DNA of 53,154 bases from an uncultured Acetobacteraceae bacterium (GTDB lineage: Bacteria; Pseudomonadota; Alphaproteobacteria; Acetobacterales; Acetobacteraceae): assembly GCA_964249255.1 (NCBI GenBank), contig CAXUBN010000001.1, positions 1-53,154 on the forward strand. Direction: 5' to 3'. The translations under genes and the position numbers were made by a program. Of the stretch, positions 11,250 through 23,231 are shown one piece after another. Each line of letters begins with the position of its first letter. Within the stretch, counting starts at the first letter, position 1. Under the pieces are notes generated by a model, which ran no database searches, had not been told where the DNA came from, and saw only the letters and a program-made list of their open reading frames with translations.

Positions 11250-11264
11250 CTCCCATCACTCGTG

Positions 11265-11282
11265 TTCGCACATACTTGCAAT
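11265..11282. promoter_or_regulatory. Possible ScfR-family binding sites
   Basis: TTCGCACA and CTTGCAAT resemble the TTTGCAAA repeat bound by PccR/PrpR and lie in an AT-rich divergent spacer. Confidence 0.4.
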
Positions 11283-11369
11283 TTTGGTATTTGTGCCACC
11301 CCGCCGCGGGAGATAGTGAAGGCTGGACGGAGGCGGCCTGGCCGCGACCCATTGCCGGAAGAACCACGC

Positions 11370-12869
11370 ATGATCATCCACGACGTCCGGGTACACCCGG
11401 AAGCCGACCGCCTGCAGCGGGAGGACCAGCTCGCCTGGAAGATCGCCTCGGTCGCCGCGGACCCGGTGGCGGTCGAGTCGGACGTGGCCGACATGATCGT
11501 CAACCGGCTGATCGACAACGCCGCGGTCGCGATCGCCTCGATCAACCGCCATCCCGTGGTCACCGCCCGGGACCAGGCGCTGGCGCATGCCCGGGCGGAT
11601 GGCGCCACGCTGTTCGGACTCGGTCCAGACGTGCGGGTGCATGCCGAATGGGCGGCCTGGGCCAACGGCACGGCGGTGCGCGAGCTCGACTACCACGACA
11701 CGTTCCTGGCGGCCGAGTACTCCCACCCCGGCGACAACATCCCGCCGATCCTGGCCGTGGCGCAGCAGCGTGGGCTGGACGGTGCCGCCCTGGTGCGCGG
11801 GCTGGCCACTGGCTACGAGATCCAGGTCGACCTCGTGCGGGCGATCAGCCTGCACAAGCACAAGATCGACCACGTGGCCCACCTGGGCCCATCGGCGGCG
11901 GCCGGCATCGGAACCATGCTGGGGTTGCCGACCGAGACCATCTACCAGTCGGTGCAGCAGGCGCTGCACACCACCACCGCGACCCGGCAGTCCCGCAAGG
12001 GCGAGATTTCCTCCTGGAAAGCGTTCGCGCCCAGCCACGCCGGCAAGCTGGCGATCGAGGCGGTGGACCGCGCCATGCGCGGCGAGGGCGCGCCCAGCCC
12101 AATCTACGAGGGCGAGGACGGCGTGATCGCCTGGATGCTGGACGGGAAGGACGCGCACTACCGGGTGCCGCTGCCGGCGCCGGGCGAGAGCAAGCGCGGC
12201 ATCCTCGACACCTATACCAAGGAGCACTCGGCCGAGTATCAGAGCCAGGCGCTGATCGACCTGGCATTCCGCATGGGCCGGCGAATCTCCGATTGGGCCG
12301 ACGTCGAGAGCATCCTGATCGAGACCTCGCACCACACCCACTACGTGATCGGCACCGGCTCCAACGACCCGCAGAAGTTCGATCCGACCGCGTCGCGCGA
12401 GACGCTCGACCATTCGATCATGTACATCGTGGCCGTGGCGTTGCAGGACGGCGCCTGGCACCACGTCCGCTCCTACGAGCCCTCGCGCGCGCAGCGTCCG
12501 GACACGGTGGCGCTGTGGCGCAAGATCAGCACGGTCGAGGATCCAAAGTGGACCGCGCGCTACCATTCGGAGGACGCCGACGTGAAGGCGTTCGGCGGAC
12601 GGGTGGTCATCACGCTGAAGAACGGCGAGGTCATCGCCGATGAGCTGGCGGTGGCCAACGCGCACACGCTGGGCGCGACGCCGTGGACGCGGCCGGCCTA
12701 CGTCAACAAGTTCCGGGTGCTGACCGAGGGCATCCTGGACGAGGCCGAGGCCGAACGGTTCCTGCGCGTGGTGCAGACACTGCCGACCCTGTCGGCAGCG
12801 GATCTGCCGCAGCTGACCGTGGCGTTGCCGGCAGGCAGGCTGGACCGGGGTGCCGCCGGCATCTTCTGA
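11370..12869 (+). CDS. prpD: 2-methylcitrate dehydratase (MmgE/PrpD)
   Basis: [49 protein letters not shown]. Confidence 0.95.
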
Positions 12870-12933
12870 TCGGACGGGTGCGTACGGGATACCGGGTCCG
12901 TCCGGACCCCGGCTCCCAGGAAGGATGATCATC

Positions 12934-14082
12934 ATGAGCGAGACCCCGGGTCCGAAACCGAAGAAGTCCGTCGCCCTGTCGGGCGTGGTCGCCGGCAACA
13001 CCGCGCTGTGCAGCGTCGGCCGCTCCGGCAACGACCTGCACTACCGCGGCTACGACATCATCGACGTCGCCCGCACCTGCGCGTTCGAGGAAATCGCGCA
13101 CCTGCTGGTGCACGGGCACCTGCCGAACGAGGCCGAGCTTGCCGTCTACAGGGTGAGGCTGAAGCGCCTGCGCGGCGTGCCGGCCGCGGTGCGCGCGGTT
13201 CTGGAAACGCTGCCGGCGGCCACGCACCCGATGGACGTGATGCGCACCGGCGTATCCGCGCTGGGCTGCGTGCTGCCGGAAAAGGACGACCACAGCGCTG
13301 CCGGCGCCCGCGACATCGCCGACCGGCTGATGGCCTCGCTCGGCTCCATGCTGCTGGTCTGGTACCAGTATAGCCACAACGGCGTGACGCTGGACGTCGA
13401 GACCGACGACGACAGCATCGGCGGCCACTTCCTGCACCTGCTGCACGGCGAGCCGGCGCCGGCCTCCTGGGTGCGGGCGATGCACGCCTCGCTGGTGCTC
13501 TACGCGGAGCACGAGTTCAACGCGTCCACCTTCGCCGCCCGGGTGATCGCCGGCACCGGATCGGACATGTACTCGGCGATCGCCGGCGGCATCGGCGCGC
13601 TGCGCGGTCCCAAGCATGGCGGTGCCAACGAGGTGGCGCTGGAGATCCAGTCCCGCTACGCGACCCCGGACGCGGCCGAGGCCGACATCCGGGCACGGGT
13701 CGCGGCGCGGGAGGTGGTGATCGGCTTCGGCCACCCGGTCTACACCATCTCCGATCCGCGCAACGTGGTGATCAAGGAGATCGCCCGCGAGCTGACCGCC
13801 GAGGCCGGCTCGGCGGCGAAGTTCGCGGTGGCGGAGCGGATCGAGGGCGTGATGTGGGACGCCAAGCGGATGTTCCCCAACCTCGACTGGTTCTCCGCCG
13901 TGTCCTACGAGGCGATGGGAGTGCCCACGGCGATGTTCACCCCCCTGTTCGTGATCGCGCGCACCGCCGGCTGGGCGGCGCACGTGATCGAGCAACGGGA
14001 GGACGGCAAGATCATCCGCCCCACCGCAAACTATACCGGCCCGGAGAACCTGTCCTTCGTGCCGCTGGCCGATCGGCCCTGA
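12934..14082 (+). CDS. prpC: 2-methylcitrate synthase
   Basis: [51 protein letters not shown]; lies between prpD and prpB. Confidence 0.95.
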
Positions 14083-14113
14083 TCGGGCCGCCGTTTCCCC
14101 GGGAGAATTCGTC

Positions 14114-15037
14114 ATGCCCTACCTGACCGCCGCCGACCTGCCTGCCGAGGCCGCGGGGGTGCGCTTCCGCCGGCTGCTGGACCGGCCGGACATCCTGCAG
14201 ATCCCGGGCACCCACAACGGCCAGGCGGCGATGCAGGCCAAGGCGGCCGGGTTCGAGGCCTGCTACCTCTCCGGGGCGGCGATGACCGCCTCCATGGGGC
14301 TGCCCGACCTCGGCATCATCACCGTGGACGAGGTCGCGTTCTTCATCCGGCAGGTCGCCCGCGCGTCCGGGCTACCGGTGCTGGTGGATGGCGACACCGG
14401 CTATGGCGAGGCGCTCAACGCCATGCACATGGTGCGCACCTTCGAGGATGCGGGTGCCGCCGCGGTGCATCTCGAGGACCAGCTGCTGCCCAAGAAGTGC
14501 GGCCACCTCAACGACAAGAGGCTGGCGGCACCCGGTGACATGGCCGCAAAGGTCGCCGCCGCCGCCCGGGCGCGCCGCTCGCTGGTCGTGATCGCCCGCA
14601 CCGATGCCGCGGCCTCCGAGGGCATGGAGGGCGCCGTCGCGCGTGCGCGGCTCTACATGGAGGCGGGCGCCGATGCGATCTTCCCGGAGGCGCTGACCAC
14701 GCCGGAGATGTTCCGCGAGTTCGCGAGCCGCATGCTCGGCGTGCCGCTGCTGGCCAACATGACCGAGTTCGGCCGCACGCCGTTCTTCACCGCCGCCGAG
14801 TTCCAGGAGTTCGGCTACCGGATGGTGATCTGGCCGGTGAGCTCGCTGCGCGTCGCCAACAAGGCGCAGGCCGAGCTGTTCGAGGCGATCCGCCGCGATG
14901 GCGGCACGCATCGCATGGTGGAGCGCATGCAGACCCGCAAGGAGCTCTACGCCACCATCGGCTACCACGACTACGAGGAGCTCGACGCGTCGATCGTCCG
15001 CACGGTCGTGCCCGAGGCGATGCCGCAGATCGACTAA
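14114..15037 (+). CDS. prpB: 2-methylisocitrate lyase
   Basis: GLPDLG, VDGDTGYG, EDQ..PKKCGH, LANMTEFG. Confidence 0.95.
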   Translation: MPYLTAADLPAEAAGVRFRRLLDRPDILQIPGTHNGQAAMQAKAAGFEACYLSGAAMTASMGLPDLGIITVDEVAFFIRQVARASGLPVLVDGDTGYGEALNAMHMVRTFEDAGAAAVHLEDQLLPKKCGHLNDKRLAAPGDMAAKVAAAARARRSLVVIARTDAAASEGMEGAVARARLYMEAGADAIFPEALTTPEMFREFASRMLGVPLLANMTEFGRTPFFTAAEFQEFGYRMVIWPVSSLRVANKAQAELFEAIRRDGGTHRMVERMQTRKELYATIGYHDYEELDASIVRTVVPEAMPQID

Positions 15038-15104: not shown

Positions 15105-16268
15105 TCAGGGAGCGTGATCGGCATCGCGGTGGCCGCCCGCAGCGCCATCGAGCCGCCCGTCCATGAACGCCGCGATATGCCGGTTCAAGAAGGCAGCGTC
15201 TGCCGGGCTGGCGCCCGCCCCGGCCGGATGTCCCCACAGTGACGGGATCGGCATCAGGATGCACTGCCTGATGAAGCCAGCCTCTGATCGCGCGTCCCCG
15301 ACCGGGAAGTAGAGATCGGTGGCCGATGGCATGAACAGTACCGGCACCCTGATCGAGCGCAGCGCCGCCTGCAGGTTTCCCGCGAAGGGCGGGGTGTCGC
15401 CGACGTCGTTCGACTGCCACGTGCGCATCTGCAGGATCAGGTCGTTGGCATCCGCGCCGGCGAAGAACGCGGTCGTGTAGCGGTCCACCGCCTGCCGGAA
15501 CGTCGTGCCGGGCGGGTTCTCGGTGCGCCACAGCTCGCGGCGCCACCATTCCTGCGAGTAAAGCCAGCCGAGCCAGACCAGCGAGGTGGCCGCAATGCCG
15601 CGCCGCGGCTCCGTCGTGTAGTTGCCGCCGTTGAAGGCGGGGTCGGTGGTGAGCGCTGCGATTTGCCCGTCAAGCCGGACGATGCCGTGGCCATAGGTCT
15701 TGGCGGTACCGGAGGTGGCGACGATCCGGTCCATGAACCGCGGATAGCTGACCGCCCACTGCAACGCCTGCTGTGCTCCCATGGAGAAGCCGATCACCGC
15801 GCGCAGGTGCGTCACGTGCAGCTGCTCCACCAGCAGGCGGTGCACGGCGTTCACGTTGTCGCGGATCGTCATGGCGGGGAAGCGGGGCCCGTGGAACGGC
15901 TCGGGCGTGTTGCTCGGCGAGGAAGACCGCCCGTTGCCGAACAGCTCGCTGGTGACCAGGAACAGCTTGGTCGGGTCGAGCGCCTTGCCTGGCCCGATCA
16001 GCCAGTCGTAGCCATGCATGTCCGCCATGTAGTGGGACGGCAGCAGGACGGCGTTGTCACCGGCCGCATTCAGTGTTCCGGTGGTGCCATACACGACGCG
16101 GGCTTCCGGTAATACCGCCTTGCCATCGGTGCTGAAGCCGTGGATCAGGAACTCGTGCTGGACCGGCGCATCCGGCGTCGCGGCGGCGGATCGCGAGACC
16201 GCGGAACCGATCACCAGCAGGCTGGACATCGCCAGCAGCGCCGGACGGATCGGATGGCGGATCGTCAT
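15105..16268 (-). CDS. Homoserine O-acetyltransferase-like (MetX fold) alpha/beta hydrolase with signal peptide
   Basis: YGTTGTLNAAGDNAVL, SSSPSN, TIRDNV, GFSMGA nucleophile elbow, TDLYFP, WGH; N-terminal signal ending in SAAA. Confidence 0.8.
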   Translation of the reverse strand: MTIRHPIRPALLAMSSLLVIGSAVSRSAAATPDAPVQHEFLIHGFSTDGKAVLPEARVVYGTTGTLNAAGDNAVLLPSHYMADMHGYDWLIGPGKALDPTKLFLVTSELFGNGRSSSPSNTPEPFHGPRFPAMTIRDNVNAVHRLLVEQLHVTHLRAVIGFSMGAQQALQWAVSYPRFMDRIVATSGTAKTYGHGIVRLDGQIAALTTDPAFNGGNYTTEPRRGIAATSLVWLGWLYSQEWWRRELWRTENPPGTTFRQAVDRYTTAFFAGADANDLILQMRTWQSNDVGDTPPFAGNLQAALRSIRVPVLFMPSATDLYFPVGDARSEAGFIRQCILMPIPSLWGHPAGAGASPADAAFLNRHIAAFMDGRLDGAAGGHRDADHAP

Positions 16269-16609
16269 GTTCCATCACTCCGCATGGCGGTTCGCGACGA
16301 CAGATCCGATCCCGTCGCCGCCAAACCCCTGTCGTATCCCCATCCGGTCGCATCGATGCAAGCGGTCAACCTCGTCCTCGACCAAGACGGTGCTGGGCGA
16401 TGATGGCGCGGCGGGAGCATCTCGACCACCATTACGACACGTCCTCGCCCTGGACGCTCAGCATCCAGCCGACCGCATGGCCCTCGGTCGACCACCTCCG
16501 GCACACTTCACATCATGTCGATCATACGAGGCTGCCGCCTGCGGCCGCCGCGCCGATGCATCCCGGCCACCGCTGCGCCGTTGCAGGGCGTCACCCTGAG
16601 GAACTCATC

Positions 16610-17002
16610 ATGCCGATCTCGACCCGGTTGCACGGATGGATCGACTACGCGGCGGCGGTTTCGCTGGGCGGCCTCGTCCTCGCCGGCGGGCTGCGGGGCC
16701 CAGCACGGGGCGTGGCCGCGGTCGCGACGGCGGTCCCCGTCGGCGTGTTCCTGCTCACGGACTTCGAGGCCGGCCTGATCGGCCTGATCGGCGTACGCCG
16801 GCATCTGCGGTTCGACGTCACCGAGGGCCTCCTCTTGTTCGGCGCTGGAGTGGCGTTGCGACGGCAGCCGTTCGTCTCCCGTGCCATCCTCGCCTTCTAC
16901 GGCCTGTCCCAGTTCGCGCTGGGGTTGTCGACCAGCCAGGTCGCGAGGAGTGGGCCTGGCCGAAGCTCCAGCCCGATCACGCGGTTGCTCGGATCGGTAT
17001 AA
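16610..17002 (+). CDS. Small hypothetical membrane protein
   Basis: ISTRLHGWIDY..LLTDFEAG..HLRFD pattern, about four hydrophobic segments, GAGG RBS. Confidence 0.65.
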   Translation: MPISTRLHGWIDYAAAVSLGGLVLAGGLRGPARGVAAVATAVPVGVFLLTDFEAGLIGLIGVRRHLRFDVTEGLLLFGAGVALRRQPFVSRAILAFYGLSQFALGLSTSQVARSGPGRSSSPITRLLGSV

Positions 17003-17103: not shown

Positions 17104-18081
17104 TCAGGTCAGCACGACGATCTTTCCGTCCGCCCTGTTCTCCTCCATGCAGCGATGCGCCTCGGCGATCTCGTCCAATCGGAAGATCGGGCCGACAGGA
17201 ACGTGCAGCTCCCCGGTCGCGATCCGTCCCGCCAGCCGCTCGAGCGGCGTCAGCATGAAGTCCGCCGCGGTGCCGCCATAGGTGGTCAAGCAGACCGCGG
17301 TCGGGATTTCCGCGATCGGGCTGAAGTCCGGCAGTACCCACTGATTGCCGACGACGCCGGTCATGCACACGATGCCGCCCGGCCGCGCGCACCGGAGCGA
17401 GTCAGCCAGGGTGATGGTGCCGATCAGCTCCAGCACCTTGTCCACGCCCTCCGCCGCATCCGGCCCCATCCGCGCCGCGATGCTGCCGTCGTCGATCACC
17501 ACCTGATCGGCACCGGACCGGCGCAGCAGCGCTTCCCGCTCCGGGCGCCGCGTGGTCGACACCACGAACGCGCCCTCGTCGCGGGCCAGGGCCGCCGCGG
17601 CCAGTCCGACCGAGGTGCCGCCGCCCCGGATCAGCAGGCGTTCCCCGGCGCGCAGCCGCAGCGACTTGTGCAGCGAGCCCCAGGCCGTCTGCAGCATCTC
17701 CGGCAGCGCGCCCAGCACCTCCCAGGACAAGGGCGTGCGAACCGCCTGCACCTGCGCCGTCGGCACCAGCACGTACTCCGCGTAGCCGCCGTCGAACTGC
17801 CGCCCCATGCCGCCCATGCAGGTGGCGACCACCTCGTCCAACTGGAATTCGCCGCCCGGTGCCGCCGCCACGGTGCCCGCCGCCTCGATGCCGAGCACAC
17901 GTGGAAACGCCACGTCCGGCGAATGACCCTGGCGCGTGAACAGCTCCGACCGGTTGAGGCCGAACGCCCGCACCCGGATCAGCACCTGTCCACGCTGCGG
18001 TACCGGCACCGGCCGGGTCTCGACGCGCAGCACGTCGGCATCGCCGGGTGCGTGCATCACCACCGCCCGCATGGTGGCCAC
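17104..18081 (-). CDS. MDR-superfamily NADPH:quinone oxidoreductase-like protein
   Basis: RAFGLNRSE, VLGIEAAG, DGGYAEY, RGGGTSVG, GKIVV; no catalytic Zn Cys/His motif seen. Confidence 0.88.
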   Translation of the reverse strand: MATMRAVVMHAPGDADVLRVETRPVPVPQRGQVLIRVRAFGLNRSELFTRQGHSPDVAFPRVLGIEAAGTVAAAPGGEFQLDEVVATCMGGMGRQFDGGYAEYVLVPTAQVQAVRTPLSWEVLGALPEMLQTAWGSLHKSLRLRAGERLLIRGGGTSVGLAAAALARDEGAFVVSTTRRPEREALLRRSGADQVVIDDGSIAARMGPDAAEGVDKVLELIGTITLADSLRCARPGGIVCMTGVVGNQWVLPDFSPIAEIPTAVCLTTYGGTAADFMLTPLERLAGRIATGELHVPVGPIFRLDEIAEAHRCMEENRADGKIVVLT

Positions 18082-18107
18082 CGCTCACCCGCCCCCGGCG
18101 GCCAGGC

Positions 18108-19157
18108 TCATGCTTCGGTCAGCCATTGCGGATTATGGTTGGTGCCATCGAAGTGCTCGGTGGTCTTGTAGAGCTCGGTGCGGCCGGTCATGGCCACCGC
18201 GGCGCTCCGGGCCAGCAGCGCCTCACGCAGCTCCGGCGAAGGCGGCACGAAGGTGCGCACGGCGTCCAGCGCCTGCGCCAGGATCGGCAGGCCGTCGATC
18301 CCGGTGACCTGGATGCTGATCGGCAGGCCCATCGGATATTGCAGCATCTGCACCGGGGGCATCACCCGCGACTTCAGGATGTAGTTGTCGCCGAATGCCT
18401 TCATGCCGATGATGCCGGTCCCCCGCGCCACCGCGATCGGCACCACGGTGCGCTCGAAGCTGTCGTAGTGCGCGTCCATGATGTTGAGCGGCATCTGCAC
18501 GGTGTCGAAGTGGAACCCGTGCCGGTCGGCGGTCGCGAACATGCTGGCGTGGATCGCCGGGCTCTTGTGGCCGGTAAAGCCGATGTAGCGGATCTTGCCC
18601 TGCTCCCGCGCCCGCAGCACCGCTTCCAGCGCGCCGCCGGCCGCGAACACCCGCGCCGGGTCGTCCGGCCGGATGATCTCGTGGAACTGCAGCAGGTCGA
18701 TGTGATCCGTGCGCAGCCGCCGCAGCGAGGTCTCGATCTGGCCGGCGGCCGCCTCCGCGGTGCGCCCGTCGATCTTGGTCATCAGCAGGATCTTGCCACG
18801 GTAGCCGCCACTGCTCAGCGCCCGCCCGAGCCTGATCTCGCTTTCGCCGCCGTTGTAGTCCCAGCAATTGTCGCAAAGGTTGATGCCGGCATCGAGTCCG
18901 GCATGCACTACCCGCACCGCCTCGTCGCTGGTCATGCCGCCGGGCTTGGCCAGGTGGAACCCGCCCATGCCGACCAGCGACACCGCCTCGCCGGTGGTGC
19001 CGAGCGCCCGGTACTTCATGTCGGGATGCTGCGGGATCGCCGCGGTGACGGTGCCGGGCCTAGGCTGCACACGGTCGTCGGTGGCCGCGTATGCAGCTGC
19101 CACCGGCGTCGCGACGACGGCCGCAGCCGCCGTCCTGATGAAGTCTCGTCGATCCAT
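18108..19157 (-). CDS. Tat-exported aldo/keto reductase-fold protein, directly downstream of larB
   Basis: MDRRDFIRTAAAAVVA twin-arginine signal; DNCWDY, TK, FHE, GFTGHK, QMPLN; GGAGG RBS. Confidence 0.9.
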   Translation of the reverse strand: MDRRDFIRTAAAAVVATPVAAAYAATDDRVQPRPGTVTAAIPQHPDMKYRALGTTGEAVSLVGMGGFHLAKPGGMTSDEAVRVVHAGLDAGINLCDNCWDYNGGESEIRLGRALSSGGYRGKILLMTKIDGRTAEAAAGQIETSLRRLRTDHIDLLQFHEIIRPDDPARVFAAGGALEAVLRAREQGKIRYIGFTGHKSPAIHASMFATADRHGFHFDTVQMPLNIMDAHYDSFERTVVPIAVARGTGIIGMKAFGDNYILKSRVMPPVQMLQYPMGLPISIQVTGIDGLPILAQALDAVRTFVPPSPELREALLARSAAVAMTGRTELYKTTEHFDGTNHNPQWLTEA

Positions 19158-19192
19158 CGCGAATTCCTCCCGTCCGGTCGAAGTCGGGGTGG

Positions 19193-19837
19193 TCAGACCA
19201 TCCCCAACGCGCGCAACGCCACGCAGGCGGCGCCGTAGCCGTTGTCGATGTTCACGACCGACAATCCCGGCGCGCAGGATGCCAGCATCGCATCCAGCGC
19301 CGCGCGTCCGCCCGTCGCCACCCCGTAGCCGACGGAGGTGGGAACGCCCACCACCAGTCCCGGGGTCAGTCCGGCCACCACCGACGGCAGCGCCGCATCC
19401 ATGCCCGCCACCACGATCACGATCGGATAGCTACGCAGCTCCTCGACCCGCCGCAGCAGCCGCCACAGCCCGGCCACTCCGACATCGGCGATCTCCGCCG
19501 CGCCGTGGCCGGAAAAGCGCAGCGTGCGCGCGATCTCCCGGGCCACCGGTACGTCGGACGTTCCCGCCGTCACCACCGCCACCCGCGTCTGCGCCAGCAA
19601 CGGCGCCGGCTCGCCCTGCCACGCGGTGCGTGACACCGGGTCATAGTCGAGGCCGGTCCTGAGGCGGTCCGGCAACGCGTCGAACCGCGCCACGTCGAGC
19701 CGGGTCAACAGCAGCGGCATGTCGGCCGCCGCTTCGAGGATGTCGGCGATCTGTCTTACCGATTTCCCGGCGCAGTAGACCGCCTCGCCAAGGCCGATCC
19801 GAGTCGTGCGCTCGCGATCGAGCAGGAACTCGCTCAC
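19193..19837 (-). CDS. larB: Nickel-pincer cofactor biosynthesis carboxylase/hydrolase LarB
   Basis: EAVYCAGK, TAGTSDVPVARE, DVGVAGL, VAGMDAALPSVV, VPTSVGYG, MLASCAPGLSVVNIDNGYGAA. Confidence 0.95.
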   Translation of the reverse strand: MSEFLLDRERTTRIGLGEAVYCAGKSVRQIADILEAAADMPLLLTRLDVARFDALPDRLRTGLDYDPVSRTAWQGEPAPLLAQTRVAVVTAGTSDVPVAREIARTLRFSGHGAAEIADVGVAGLWRLLRRVEELRSYPIVIVVAGMDAALPSVVAGLTPGLVVGVPTSVGYGVATGGRAALDAMLASCAPGLSVVNIDNGYGAACVALRALGMV

Positions 19838-20691
19838 GTGCGCGCCGCCTCCAATCGGGCCACCGCCGGCTTCAGGAACGCGCTGCCGGTGCGGTAGGCC
19901 GCGAACCGCAGCGTCCGCACCGGCTCCCCGGCCGCTGCGGCAAGTTCGGCGATCCGCTCGCGCAGCGCCGCCTCGGCGCCATGGTCGAGCCGGTCAAGGG
20001 CCCCCTCGTCGAGCTCCACCACTAGGCCCTCGCGCCGTACCCGACAGCGCACCGCCATCGGCGCCAGCTCCAGGGCCGTCAGCCGCTCCACCGCATGCAC
20101 GAGCGCCAGGACCCGCGGCTCGATCGCCAGTCCGGTCTCGATCCGGCTCGACAGGCACGGCGCCGACGGCAGATCGGCCAGCTCGGCCAGCCCGACCAGC
20201 GGCGCGATCCGCCGCAACGTCGCCTTGGCGATCCCCGCCTCGACGAAGGGGTGCCGCACGCCATACTTGGCCGCCGCCCGCAGCCCCGGCCGGTAGTCGC
20301 CGAGATCGTCCGTGTTGGTGCCTGACAGCACCAAGGTGCCGCTGCCGCGCAGCCGTTCGGCGATGCTGCCGTAGAGCTTGTTCTTGCAGTGGAGGCAACG
20401 ATCGACCGGGTTGGCCCGGTAGCGCGGGTCGCCGAACTCGCCGGCATCGAACACCACCAGCGCCACGCCGAGGCGATCGGCCAGCGCCCGCGTACGCTCC
20501 GTCGCCTCCGGTGGCACCGCGGGCGAGGTCGCATGGTGCAAGGCCAGGCGGGCAGACCCCAACGTCGTCACCGCTGTGGCCGCCAGCGTCAGGCTGTCGA
20601 TGCCGCCGCTGACCGCGACCACCAAGTCCTGAGCCGGCAGCCCATGCAGTACCGCCTGCAGGCGTCGCAGCGCGGGCGCCGCGTCGCTCAT
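19834..20691 (-). CDS. larE: ATP-dependent sulfur transferase LarE
   Basis: PP-loop AVSGGIDS, NPVDRCLHCK, GTNTDDLGDYRPG, PSAPCLSSRI; 4-bp overlaps with larC and larB. Confidence 0.93.
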   Translation of the reverse strand: MSDAAPALRRLQAVLHGLPAQDLVVAVSGGIDSLTLAATAVTTLGSARLALHHATSPAVPPEATERTRALADRLGVALVVFDAGEFGDPRYRANPVDRCLHCKNKLYGSIAERLRGSGTLVLSGTNTDDLGDYRPGLRAAAKYGVRHPFVEAGIAKATLRRIAPLVGLAELADLPSAPCLSSRIETGLAIEPRVLALVHAVERLTALELAPMAVRCRVRREGLVVELDEGALDRLDHGAEAALRERIAELAAAAGEPVRTLRFAAYRTGSAFLKPAVARLEAART

Positions 20692-22016
20692 GCCCCTGCC
20701 CCCAGCGCGATCGCCTCCGCCAGCCGGCGCAGCCGGGCTCGGCCGGCGTGCCCGTCCGATGCCAGCAGGTGGTCCGACTCCGCCTTCGCCGTCTGCCCAT
20801 CCGGTCGCTGCGCCAGCTTCACGTCCACCGGCACGCCGTCCACCTCCAGGCGCGCCATCTGCCACTGCAACGCTCGGCCCTGCACCCGGTGGGTTCGCAG
20901 TCCGATCGTCGTGGTTTCGCGGAAGCAGGCGGCGACCACCTCCGCCGCCCGTTCCGGCGCCACCAGCACCTGCACGTGAACCGCGAGGCGGTTCTTCTTG
21001 CCGAAGGCCGTCATCTGCACGATGTCATGCACTCCTGGCAGCGTCCGCACCCGGTCGAGCCCGGTCGCCAGGTCCTCGCCGGACTGGTCGTCGACCTCGA
21101 ACGAGATCACCTCCAGCTCTCGGTGCGCGGCGCCCTGGCCGCCGTTGTCTTCCCTAACCTGCGGCTCCAGCACCAGCACGCGCACGCAGTTGCTGGTCCC
21201 GGGAAGCCGTCGCATGCCGTGGCCGATGCCGGTCCCGACCAGCCGGCCGGCTGGTCGGCTGCCCAGCAGGCCGGCCCGCCTCAGGTAGGCGAGGATCGCT
21301 GCCCCGGTCGGCGTCACCCGCTCGCCGCCGATGCCGTCGTCGATCGTCTCGAACCCTTGCAGCAGGAGCGTGGTCGCCGGTGCCGGGACCGGCATCAGGC
21401 CATGCGCGGTGCGGATCCGCCCCGACCCGAGCGGCAGCGCCGACACGCTCCAGCCGACCGCTCCGATCCGATCGATCAGCACCGCGGCCGCGACGATGTC
21501 GCCGATCGAGTCGGCAGCGCCGACCTCGTGGAACGTGATCGCATCCGGCTGGCAGCCGTGCACCTGTCCCTCGGCCTCGGCCAGCGTCGTGAAGATGCCG
21601 ATCGCATGCGCGTGCACGACATCCTCAAGTCCACAGTCTCCCAGGTGCGTGCGGATGTCCCGCCAGGCGCGGTGACCGTGCTCGACCCCGCTCGCGGTGT
21701 CGTCGGGATGGGGATCGAGCGTATGCTCGTGATGATGGTCGTGACCATGATCATGCTCGGCGTGCCGGGGCTCCGCATCATCGGTCGCGGCGGCGGACCG
21801 CCCATCCGCCCCCTCGATCTGGAAGCGCCATCCTGTCAGCACCCCGTCATCGTGCGCCAGCAGCCGACACCGCACCGGCGCCGCGCATGATACCGCCGCC
21901 TCGACCGCATCTCGATGCTGCGGGAACGCCCCGAGCAGGCACGCTGCGAACATGTCGCCGGCCAGGCCACCGAGCGGGTCCAGATGCAGATGGATCATGG
22001 GCATGATGATGCGCAC
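20688..22016 (-). CDS. larC: Nickel insertase LarC (single ORF, His-rich; start could be 21998)
   Basis: GLAGDMF, His-rich HDHGHDHHHEH, AEAEGQVHG, FHEVGAADSIGDIV, AHGLMPVPAPAT, ERVTPTGAAIL, EVDDQSGE, KKNR, ETTTIGLR. Confidence 0.95.
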   Translation of the reverse strand: MRIIMPMIHLHLDPLGGLAGDMFAACLLGAFPQHRDAVEAAVSCAAPVRCRLLAHDDGVLTGWRFQIEGADGRSAAATDDAEPRHAEHDHGHDHHHEHTLDPHPDDTASGVEHGHRAWRDIRTHLGDCGLEDVVHAHAIGIFTTLAEAEGQVHGCQPDAITFHEVGAADSIGDIVAAAVLIDRIGAVGWSVSALPLGSGRIRTAHGLMPVPAPATTLLLQGFETIDDGIGGERVTPTGAAILAYLRRAGLLGSRPAGRLVGTGIGHGMRRLPGTSNCVRVLVLEPQVREDNGGQGAAHRELEVISFEVDDQSGEDLATGLDRVRTLPGVHDIVQMTAFGKKNRLAVHVQVLVAPERAAEVVAACFRETTTIGLRTHRVQGRALQWQMARLEVDGVPVDVKLAQRPDGQTAKAESDHLLASDGHAGRARLRRLAEAIALGAGA

Positions 22017-22163
22017 GCCTGGAAGCCTCGTCCAAGCGGTCCCCCGCCGGGCTCACGACGTCGTGGCTTGCTTGGCCGTTCACTACCCTCACCCTCCGGT
22101 ACGGACCTCGTCTACTGCCGCGATCCATACGGCCCGCGCACCCTCGCCCTTATGGAGCATCCG

Positions 22164-23231
22164 ATGACCCCCGCCGACACCAGCGAGTCCATCCGGTTGC
22201 AGGACCCGGCCCTGCCGGTGACCCGCATCGACGATCCGGCCGCCCTGCCCCTGCTGACCGATGGTGGCGAGCGCCGCGGCGACATGCTGTACCGTCGCTT
22301 CGGCCGCACCGACGAGATGATCTCGGCGATCGGCATGGGCGGCTTCCACCTGGGCAAGAATGCCATCACCGACGAGGAGGCGGTGCGGCTGGTGCACGAG
22401 GGGGTCGATCGCGGCATCAGCTTCATCGACAACTGCTGGGACTACAACGGCGGCCGCTCCGAGTTGCGCGTGGGTGTGGCGTTGTCGCAGGGCGGTTACC
22501 GCGACCGGGTGTTCCTGATGTCCAAGATGGACGGCCGCTCCAAGGCCGAGGCGACGCGCCAGATCGACACCTCCCTGAAGCGCATGCGTACCGATCGCAT
22601 CGACCTCGTTCAGCACCACGAGATCCTGCGCTACGACGACCCCGACCGCATCTTCGGCGAGGGTGGCGCGATGGAAGCGTTCCTTGAGGCCAAACAGGCT
22701 GGCAAGATCCGCCACATCGGCTTCACCGGTCACAAGGATCCGCGCATCCATCTGCAGATGCTGGCGGTGGCCGCGGAGCGCGGGTTCCACTTCGACGCCG
22801 TGCAGATGCCGCTCAACGTGATGGACGCACATTTCCGCTCGTTCGCCCACCTGGTGCTGCCCTACCTCGTCCGGCATGGCATCGCGGTGCTGGGCATGAA
22901 GACGTTCGGTGACAGCGTCCTGCTCAAGAGCGAAGCGCCGATCACGCCGCTGGAATACCTTCACTACTCCCTTACCCTACCGACATCGGTGGTCATCACA
23001 GGCATGGAGAACCGACGGGACCTGGACCAAGCATTGGAAGCGACGCGCACCTTCGTGCCCATGGACAGGGAGACCCTGGCGGCACTTCTGCAGCGTAGCC
23101 GGCCCTATGCGCTGGAGGGCCGTTACGAGCTGTTCAAGACCAGCACCGTGTTCGATGGCACCGCCAAGAACTCGGTGTGGCTGGGGGAGGAGGCCGACAA
23201 CGTCAACGCCCTTGCCCCGGTCATGGAGTAG
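22164..23231 (+). CDS. Cytoplasmic aldo/keto reductase-fold protein, paralog of 18108-19157, divergent from larC
   Basis: GMGGFHL, DNCWDYNGG, SK, HHE, GFTGHK, QMPLNVMDAH, GMK, ELFKT..FDGT; no signal peptide. Confidence 0.9.
   Translation: MTPADTSESIRLQDPALPVTRIDDPAALPLLTDGGERRGDMLYRRFGRTDEMISAIGMGGFHLGKNAITDEEAVRLVHEGVDRGISFIDNCWDYNGGRSELRVGVALSQGGYRDRVFLMSKMDGRSKAEATRQIDTSLKRMRTDRIDLVQHHEILRYDDPDRIFGEGGAMEAFLEAKQAGKIRHIGFTGHKDPRIHLQMLAVAAERGFHFDAVQMPLNVMDAHFRSFAHLVLPYLVRHGIAVLGMKTFGDSVLLKSEAPITPLEYLHYSLTLPTSVVITGMENRRDLDQALEATRTFVPMDRETLAALLQRSRPYALEGRYELFKTSTVFDGTAKNSVWLGEEADNVNALAPVME

What the first reader, a model, noticed from the sequence alone, without database searches (positions are those of the whole stretch)
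17104..23231. Nickel-pincer (larC-larE-larB) operon without larA, bracketed by two atypical aldo-keto reductases: candidate new NPN-dependent enzyme class
Seen: larC, larE and larB are coupled by 4-bp overlaps and followed 35 bp later by an AKR-fold gene, then a QOR-like gene; a paralogous AKR sits divergently right next to larC; no LarA/DUF2088 racemase is in the window. Established: LarB, LarE and LarC convert NaAD into the nickel-pincer nucleotide, a hydride-shuttling cofactor whose classic clients are LarA-family 2-hydroxyacid racemases/epimerases, and larBCE is known to occur in genomes lacking larA. Inference: these AKRs, a hydride-transfer fold, are the NPN clients and use a bound Ni-pincer instead of freely exchanging NAD(P)H, for example for sugar or aldehyde isomerisation, epimerisation or dismutation. 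A literature check for NPN-binding AKRs is needed before claiming novelty.
Basis: partly seen in the sequence, partly recalled or inferred. Interest (0 to 1): 0.92.

Follow-up and report, generated by a model that had tools for sequence, protein, structure and literature searches.

The report
Exported and cytoplasmic nickel-pincer reductase pair
Three genes that build a nickel cofactor sit between two related reductase-like genes that likely use it, as a kind of enzyme published in June 2026 does; one of the two carries an export signal and is predicted to work outside the cytoplasm, while its twin has none.

Summary
NphT is the top solved-structure hit of both AKRs, and both keep its nickel histidine, tethering lysine and catalytic tetrad; none of the genome's 13 other AKR matches shows that pair. 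In 200 family genomes, all 24 with this AKR have larC (16 of 176 without it do), and 14 of the 24 have no larA match. A same-genus genome has the lar genes and both AKRs decayed together. No larA was found here, but the assembly is 72% complete. What differs from NphT: AKR1 has a Tat export signal; AKR2 belongs to a signal-less clade nested among Tat-bearing relatives; both lack NphT's W218/Y219 loop. The QOR gene is likely a passenger. This scan has noted Tat-bearing and signal-less versions before on other DNA. Verdict: a new variant of a known kind; cofactor binding, export and substrate are untested.

The parts
20688..22004 (-). larC, nickel insertase (fused LarC1-LarC2, with a His-rich insert near residues 80-110)
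   Evidence: TIGR00299 and NF052512 above cut-off; PF01969 E 7e-82; only copy found in the assembly; 10 His in 30 residues
19834..20691 (-). larE, sulfur insertase, likely of the [4Fe-4S] type
   Evidence: TIGR00268 above cut-off; SGGxDS at 28 and Cys99, Cys102, Cys179, the CXXC-C motif described in PMC9283937
19193..19837 (-). larB, NaAD carboxylase/hydrolase
   Evidence: NF033503 246 bits against a cut-off of 175
18108..19157 (-). AKR1: NphT-type AKR, predicted Tat-exported; D96, Y101, K128, H159 (tetrad), T195, H197 (nickel ligand), K253 (tether)
   Evidence: 9YEB top hit, E 1.4e-24; profile alignment reaches the lysine; AKR fold, model pLDDT 86.6, best Z 31.2
19086..19157 (-). Predicted twin-arginine signal peptide of AKR1 (residues 1-24: RR at 3-4, hydrophobic stretch, A-x-A at 22-24)
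   Evidence: TIGR01409 17.8 bits against a cut-off of 16.7 on the first 60 residues; PF10518 E 9e-4, below its cut-off; RR within the first 8 residues in 114 of 120 homologues
22164..23231 (+). AKR2: NphT-type AKR without a signal peptide, divergent from larC; D89, Y94, K121, H152, T188, H190, K246
   Evidence: 9YEB top hit, E 4.6e-26; no signal model matches; 0 of 120 homologues pass my Tat rule
22005..22163 (.). 159-base spacer between the divergent starts of larC and AKR2; presumably holds both promoters
   Evidence: sequence; the sigma-70 scan found nothing here
17104..18081 (-). QOR-type medium-chain reductase, probably co-transcribed but likely a passenger
   Evidence: PF08240, PF00107, PF13602; glycine-rich Rossmann-type motif at about residue 150; a QOR-like gene in 1 of 80 loci, at 41% identity

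Best explanation
The larC-larE-larB operon likely makes the nickel-pincer mononucleotide for the two flanking aldo-keto reductases, which are predicted to bind it covalently and shuttle hydride between organic substrates, one likely in the periplasm and one likely in the cytoplasm. By analogy to NphT (inferred, not shown here): LarB, LarE and LarC turn NaAD into NPMN; it is tethered as a thioamide to K253 of AKR1 or K246 of AKR2, H197 or H190 binds the nickel, and the tetrad tyrosine is the acid/base. The enzyme takes a hydride from one aldose or aldehyde (giving a lactone or acid) and hands it to a second carbonyl (giving an alcohol), so it needs no NAD(P)H. AKR1 would be loaded in the cytoplasm and exported folded by Tat. 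AKR2 descends from a Tat-bearing lineage that lost the signal. Shown: gene identities, layout, motifs, co-occurrence, joint decay. Inferred: cofactor binding (about 0.85), export of AKR1 (about 0.8), aldose or aldehyde substrate (about 0.5).
For: (1) NphT (9YEB) is the best PDB sequence hit for both proteins and for their profile, 7 to 9 orders of magnitude ahead of the next. (2) NphT D47, Y52, K75, H106, T142, H144 and K200 align to identical residues; I199 aligns to Met (PDB numbering is the paper's plus 3). The histidine motif is in 240 of 240 homologues and the lysine in 240 of 240. (3) Of 15 AKR matches in this assembly only these two have the His and the Lys; one of the other 13 is cut short before the Lys column. 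Their match to PF00248 stops at profile position 196 or 206 of 291, against 286-290 for 12 of the other 13. (4) In 200 family genomes, 24 of 24 with this AKR have larC, against 16 of 176 without it; 14 of the 24 have no larA match, six of them closed or nearly closed. In 21 of the 24 an AKR lies within about 3 kb of larC (coordinates). (5) In same-genus genome G161 (99% complete) larB and larE are broken, larC and AKR2 have lost their 5' parts in one deletion and only about 25 codons of AKR1 remain, while five downstream genes align full length. (6) Tat signal on AKR1 and tatC in the assembly; a NicO-family nickel transporter is present elsewhere.
Against: No biochemical data. The W218/Y219 loop of NphT, which helps hold the cofactor, has no counterpart: the loop after the lysine is about 12 residues shorter. 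Identity to NphT is only about 36% over residues 45-229 (counted by eye). 10 of the 24 AKR-bearing family genomes also have a larA match (one weak), and this assembly is 72% complete, so a larA may be missing from it. 4 of 44 genomes without adjacent lar genes had no larC match; three of those AKRs lie at contig ends, L044 does not. In the Acidobacteriota sample larC is in 109 of 151 genomes, so 14 of 14 there says little. Kin are not independent, so the family tally overstates. The Pfam Tat model scores below its cut-off. No conserved neighbour other than the lar genes points to a substrate.
Confidence: 0.72

Rival explanations
1. The AKRs use a pincer cofactor in another way than NphT: the dinucleotide form NPAD, or NPMN held without a covalent bond, or on a non-sugar substrate.
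For: The paper itself allows NPAD or non-covalent binding among homologues. The W218/Y219 loop is missing and a conserved C-terminal extension (K331, F336-T339, W345 invariant in 37 sequences) is present. NphT's own physiological substrate is unknown.
Against: The tethering lysine is kept in 240 of 240 homologues. No ornithine cyclodeaminase-family gene, the known NPAD client, was found in the assembly.
Confidence: 0.13
2. Signal-less AKR2 is not a cytoplasmic enzyme but rides out with AKR1 as a heterodimer through Tat.
For: 9 of 10 family genomes with the signal-less type also hold a second, AKR1-like match. Co-export of a signal-less subunit is known for Tat substrates such as hydrogenases (recalled).
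Against: Closed genome G123 has only the signal-less type and an intact lar operon elsewhere. NphT is a monomer. The two genes are usually unlinked in relatives.
Confidence: 0.06
3. They are ordinary NAD(P)H-dependent AKRs, and the operon serves a larA in the unassembled 28% of the genome.
For: The assembly is incomplete; 10 of 24 AKR-bearing relatives have a larA match; the fold is a standard AKR barrel.
Against: 14 of 24 such relatives, some closed, have no larA match; the His/Lys pair is absent from the other AKRs of the genome; joint decay in G161; an exported enzyme would have no NAD(P)H pool (established knowledge).
Confidence: 0.06
4. The QOR-type protein is also a pincer client or a dedicated redox partner.
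For: It lies 26-35 bases behind AKR1; a remnant of its 5' end sits at the decayed G161 locus; QOR-like genes of about 40% identity lie behind the AKR in L001 and L099; 7 of 8 close orthologues in the family sample are in larC-bearing genomes.
Against: Present in 1 of 80 loci; none of the 8 orthologues lies next to larC, and one is in a genome with no larC match; its Rossmann-type glycine motif is intact; it has no signal peptide by inspection.
Confidence: 0.05

Closest known systems
NphT, NPMN-dependent hydride transferase of Alicyclobacillus cellulosilyticus (PDB 9YEB; Semersky et al., Nat Chem 2026, PMC13524815)
   Same: AKR barrel; encoded beside larBCE without larA; catalytic tetrad, Thr, nickel His and tethering Lys all align.
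   Different: About 36% identity over the aligned N-terminal part; W218/Y219 loop absent; extra conserved C-terminal extension; Tat signal on AKR1; two paralogues at one locus; no sugar-catabolism genes as conserved neighbours.
LarA-family NPN racemases/epimerases (PF09861)
   Same: Same biosynthetic operon and, by inference, the same cofactor, held by a Lys and a His.
   Different: Different fold; intramolecular racemisation rather than transfer between molecules; not found in this assembly. In three AKR-negative relatives that I fetched, larA sits directly before larC.
[quoted passage not shown]
   Same: Fold and tetrad.
   Different: They lack the His/Lys pair; the C-terminal third that binds the dinucleotide in them does not match the Pfam model in AKR1 and AKR2.
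NPAD-dependent ornithine cyclodeaminase (known to me only from its mention in PMC13524815)
   Same: A non-LarA client of a nickel-pincer cofactor found beside lar genes.
   Different: Different fold, non-covalent dinucleotide cofactor; no PF02423 match in this assembly.

Membership tests
NphT-type NPMN-dependent AKR | AKR (PF00248) TIM-barrel fold | tested here: met
   PF00248 for both; AKR1 model matches AKRs at Z 24-31
NphT-type NPMN-dependent AKR | Beside larB, larC and larE with no larA nearby | tested here: met
NphT-type NPMN-dependent AKR | Nickel-binding His (H144) and tethering Lys (K200) | tested here: met
   H197/K253 in AKR1 and H190/K246 in AKR2
NphT-type NPMN-dependent AKR | Catalytic tetrad D47, Y52, K75, H106 and T142 | tested here: met
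NphT-type NPMN-dependent AKR | Cofactor contacts W218 and Y219 (described for NphT; not part of the paper's family motif) | tested here: not met
   the loop that carries them is about 12 residues shorter, by a bridged alignment through L028; the C-terminal extension might stand in, untested
NphT-type NPMN-dependent AKR | Cofactor cavity capped so that the AMP half of NAD(P) does not fit | tested here: inconclusive
   only indirect: Pfam match ends early; no docking or cavity tool; 9YEB was not among the rows of the structure searches
NphT-type NPMN-dependent AKR | Covalent NPMN adduct (+450 Da) and hydride transfer without NAD(P)H | not testable with these tools
   needs purified protein
NphT-type NPMN-dependent AKR | Listed among the paper's 427 or 798 sequences | tested here: inconclusive
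   the lists were not in the supplementary files that could be read
Tat substrate (AKR1) | Twin-arginine motif, hydrophobic region, A-x-A site | tested here: met
   TIGR01409 above cut-off; PF10518 below cut-off; conserved in homologues
Tat substrate (AKR1) | Tat-dependent export | not testable with these tools
   tatC is present; export not shown
[quoted passage not shown] | No His/Lys pair; independent of larBCE | tested here: not met
[4Fe-4S]-type LarE | SGGxDS and CXXC-C motifs | tested here: met

The most novel reading that the evidence does not exclude
A nickel-pincer enzyme is exported to the periplasm with its organometallic cofactor attached and there runs NAD(P)H-free sugar or aldehyde dismutation and transhydrogenation, while a twin that lost its signal does the same in the cytoplasm: one cofactor operon, two compartments. 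In lichen-dwelling Acetobacteraceae this could interconvert the pentoses and polyols of the thallus.
Probability: 0.55. Interest if true: 0.62.

Novelty: new variant of a known kind. Interest (0 to 1): 0.4.

Why it matters
The enzyme class is known, but its physiological role is open, and I found no extracytoplasmic nickel-pincer enzyme in print. A cultured species, Lichenicoccus roseus, encodes both forms (A0A5R9JCU6 with the signal, A0A5R9J3C2 without), so localisation and substrate can be tested side by side.

Tried and rejected
Foldseek and VIA searches confirmed the AKR fold but did not list 9YEB (the Foldseek library ends in April 2026), so no residue-level superposition was possible. 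The paper's sequence lists could not be read: the main supplementary PDF and four spreadsheets are too large; files 1-10 were searched without finding them (file 9 is held cut), files 11 and 12 were not searched. All-against-all clustering of neighbours in 80 loci found only the lar genes as common partners; the next clusters were a short-chain dehydrogenase-type and a sensor-kinase-type group in 12-14 loci, none in the window. The promoter/terminator scan was at chance level. The larC test in Acidobacteriota is weak because 109 of 151 genomes have larC, which also weakens the 40 of 44. My first lysine pattern missed 87 of 120 AKR2 homologues because it demanded a Gly two residues on; the corrected pattern finds the Lys in all. 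The long ORF from 21915 was rejected as the AKR2 start: its upstream part is not conserved in L001. A recent tandem duplication was rejected: the two AKRs lie in distant clades. No complex prediction was run, as I make no binding claim.
Full report
Observation. larC, larE and larB all pass their NCBIfam cut-offs and are joined by ATGA and GTGA overlaps; AKR1 starts 35 bases after larB and a QOR-type gene follows it. AKR2 lies on the other strand, with a probable start at 22164, 159 bases from the larC start. The two AKRs are 55.6% identical. The locus has the genome's G+C content, 70%. The closest named relatives are Acetobacteraceae. No larA was found in the assembly by family model or by a relative's protein, but it is 72.3% complete.

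What is already known. My first literature search returned PMC13524815. I read parts 1-5 of 10 of its text (abstract, introduction, results, discussion, part of the methods) and the extended-data legends. It mined larBCE clusters without larA, found AKRs beside them in 427 instances, and showed that one, NphT, binds NPMN covalently at K200 with H144 on the nickel. NphT dismutates ribose, arabinose and galactose to lactone plus alditol, transfers hydride from ribose to butanal, is inactive with NAD(P)(H) alone and does not racemise lactate. Its natural substrate is unknown. The paper counts 798 homologues with the His/Lys motif.

Membership. 9YEB is the best PDB sequence hit for AKR1 (E 1.4e-24), AKR2 (4.6e-26) and their 37-sequence profile (1.1e-33; next 2.7e-24). 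With the PDB numbering offset by three, D47, Y52, K75, H106, T142, H144 and K200 align to D96, Y101, K128, H159, T195, H197 and K253 of AKR1, and to D89, Y94, K121, H152, T188, H190 and K246 of AKR2. His and Lys are kept in all 240 homologues retrieved, the best 120 for each query. As an internal control, none of the other 13 AKR matches in the assembly has the His, and none of the 12 that reach that column has the Lys. One difference is real: bridging through a more NphT-like protein in L028, the loop carrying W218 and Y219 is about 12 residues shorter in both window proteins, which instead have a conserved C-terminal extension. The AlphaFold model of AKR1 (pLDDT 86.6, low over residues 1-22) is an AKR barrel. 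Cavity size could not be tested.

Genetic coupling. In 200 genomes of the window's family (at least 90% complete), 24 have this AKR subfamily, 40 larC and 23 larA. All 24 have larC, against 16 of the other 176. Of those 16, 12 have larA; the other four are a decayed locus (G161), a cluster cut by a contig end (G073) and two with a distant larC (34% identity over part of it; G045, G146). Fourteen of the 24 have no larA match, including G007, G008, G017, G047, G123 and G145, which have one or two contigs and are at least 98% complete. Ten have larA as well (one weak), so larA and the AKRs can share the cofactor. An AKR lies next to larC in 21 of the 24 (coordinates). Kin are not independent, so the Fisher value (about 1e-20) overstates. 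Among the best 80 of 596 loci from a partial scan of GTDB genomes, 36 have a lar gene in the fetched flank and 27 all three; for the 22 closest the figure is 19. Of the other 44, 40 have larC elsewhere (this tally, the 80-locus counts and the tree include one unpublished genome, G237/L072). That is weak evidence, because many are Acidobacteriota, where 109 of 151 sampled genomes have larC (14 of 14 among those with the AKR). L044 is a possible exception. The most telling case is G161, same genus and 99% complete: larB is in four pieces with stops, larE is broken, one deletion removes the 5' parts of larC and AKR2, and only the tail of AKR1 remains, while five downstream polysaccharide genes align full length. 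The other same-genus genome, G063, has neither larC nor the AKR.

AKR1 begins with a twin-arginine signal: RR at 3-4, a hydrophobic stretch and A-x-A at 22-24. It passes TIGR01409 (17.8 against 16.7 bits, first 60 residues) but not Pfam's cut-off. 114 of 120 homologues have RR in their first eight residues; the other six appear cut short, mis-started or fused. tatC is in the assembly. AKR2 has no such signal, nor do its 120 closest homologues by my rule. In a FastTree tree of 116 core sequences, midpoint-rooted, with signals labelled by pattern or by eye, the signal-less AKR2 clade (support 1.0) is nested among Tat-bearing lineages, and AKR1 lies in a distant clade. So export looks ancestral and AKR2 looks like a loss. 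Signal-less members also occur in two other places in that tree (L093/L099 and L098). In L014, L015, G069 and G168 the gene divergent from larC is a Tat-bearing relative of AKR2; in the window, L001 and apparently G161 it is the signal-less type. The paper's main text does not use the words signal peptide, periplasm, twin-arginine, Tat or secreted, and three further searches listed no paper on an exported pincer enzyme (listings only). Its main supplementary PDF and sequence lists could not be read and may bear on this.

How it most likely works. LarB, a LarE with the CXXC-C motif of the [4Fe-4S] type (passages of PMC9283937 only) and LarC make NPMN from NaAD, with nickel probably supplied by the NicO-family transporter encoded elsewhere. 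Each AKR is inferred to tether the cofactor through its Lys and to run a ping-pong hydride transfer between two organic substrates. Tat exports folded proteins with their cofactors, and the periplasm has no NAD(P)H pool (established knowledge), so a tethered self-regenerating cofactor fits an exported AKR and a free dinucleotide does not. I put cofactor binding at about 0.85, export of AKR1 at about 0.8, and an aldose or aldehyde substrate at about 0.5. No conserved neighbour names the substrate. Named relatives include lichen isolates, and lichens are rich in ribitol and arabitol (recalled), the products NphT makes from its best substrates. That link is speculation, and the subfamily is also common in Acidobacteriota and other phyla.

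The QOR gene. It is probably co-transcribed here, but a QOR-like gene appears in only 1 of 80 loci, at 41% identity. Eight close orthologues in the family sample lie away from larC; seven of them are in larC-bearing genomes and one sits about 3.5 kb from a signal-less AKR (G189), a mild enrichment that I cannot separate from shared ancestry or habitat.

Earlier notes of this scan. After forming this reading I found 19 notes with the same words, eight shown, several describing Tat-bearing AKRs beside larBCE, and one sequence look-alike of AKR2. They agree but are not independent evidence, and I did not check their DNA.

Verdict. A real and well-supported system, of a kind published in June 2026. 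The variant features are predicted export, a signal-less twin served by the same operon, and a different lid. The joint decay in a sister genome is good new evidence for the link. Interest 0.4.

Noticed in passing
L104:3959-6500 (G161:C6, same genus): The orthologous locus is decayed as a unit: larB and larE broken, larC and AKR2 cut by one deletion, only remnants of AKR1 and the QOR gene; downstream genes align full length.
   Followed up: yes
window 23262-46000: A polysaccharide-synthesis region (glycosyltransferases, flippase-type gene) with 54% G+C against 70% for the genome, so probably acquired; its first genes are also present in G161.
   Followed up: partly
L026:11186-12115, L028:12421-13335, L050:11104-12018, L075:7761-8675: Acidobacterial loci carry a second, more NphT-like His/Lys AKR with its own twin-arginine signal, facing the first; L024 and L026 carry three or four such AKRs.
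   Followed up: partly
G245-G394 (Acidobacteriota sample): larC is in 109 of 151 genomes but this AKR subfamily in only 14, so most need another client; I did not search them for larA.
   Followed up: no
L105, L107 (G045, G146): Two small genomes with a distant larC and no larA, no AKR of this subfamily and no larB or larE match in the fetched flanks.
   Followed up: partly
window 11262-15037: prpD, citrate synthase-family and PEP-mutase/isocitrate-lyase-family genes in a row: an ordinary methylcitrate-cycle cluster.
   Followed up: no
window 15105-16268 and 16400-17002: A MetX-like alpha/beta hydrolase with a signal-like N-terminus (just under the PRK07581 cut-off) and a small membrane-like ORF with no family match; neither is linked to the AKR in the 80 loci.
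   Followed up: partly
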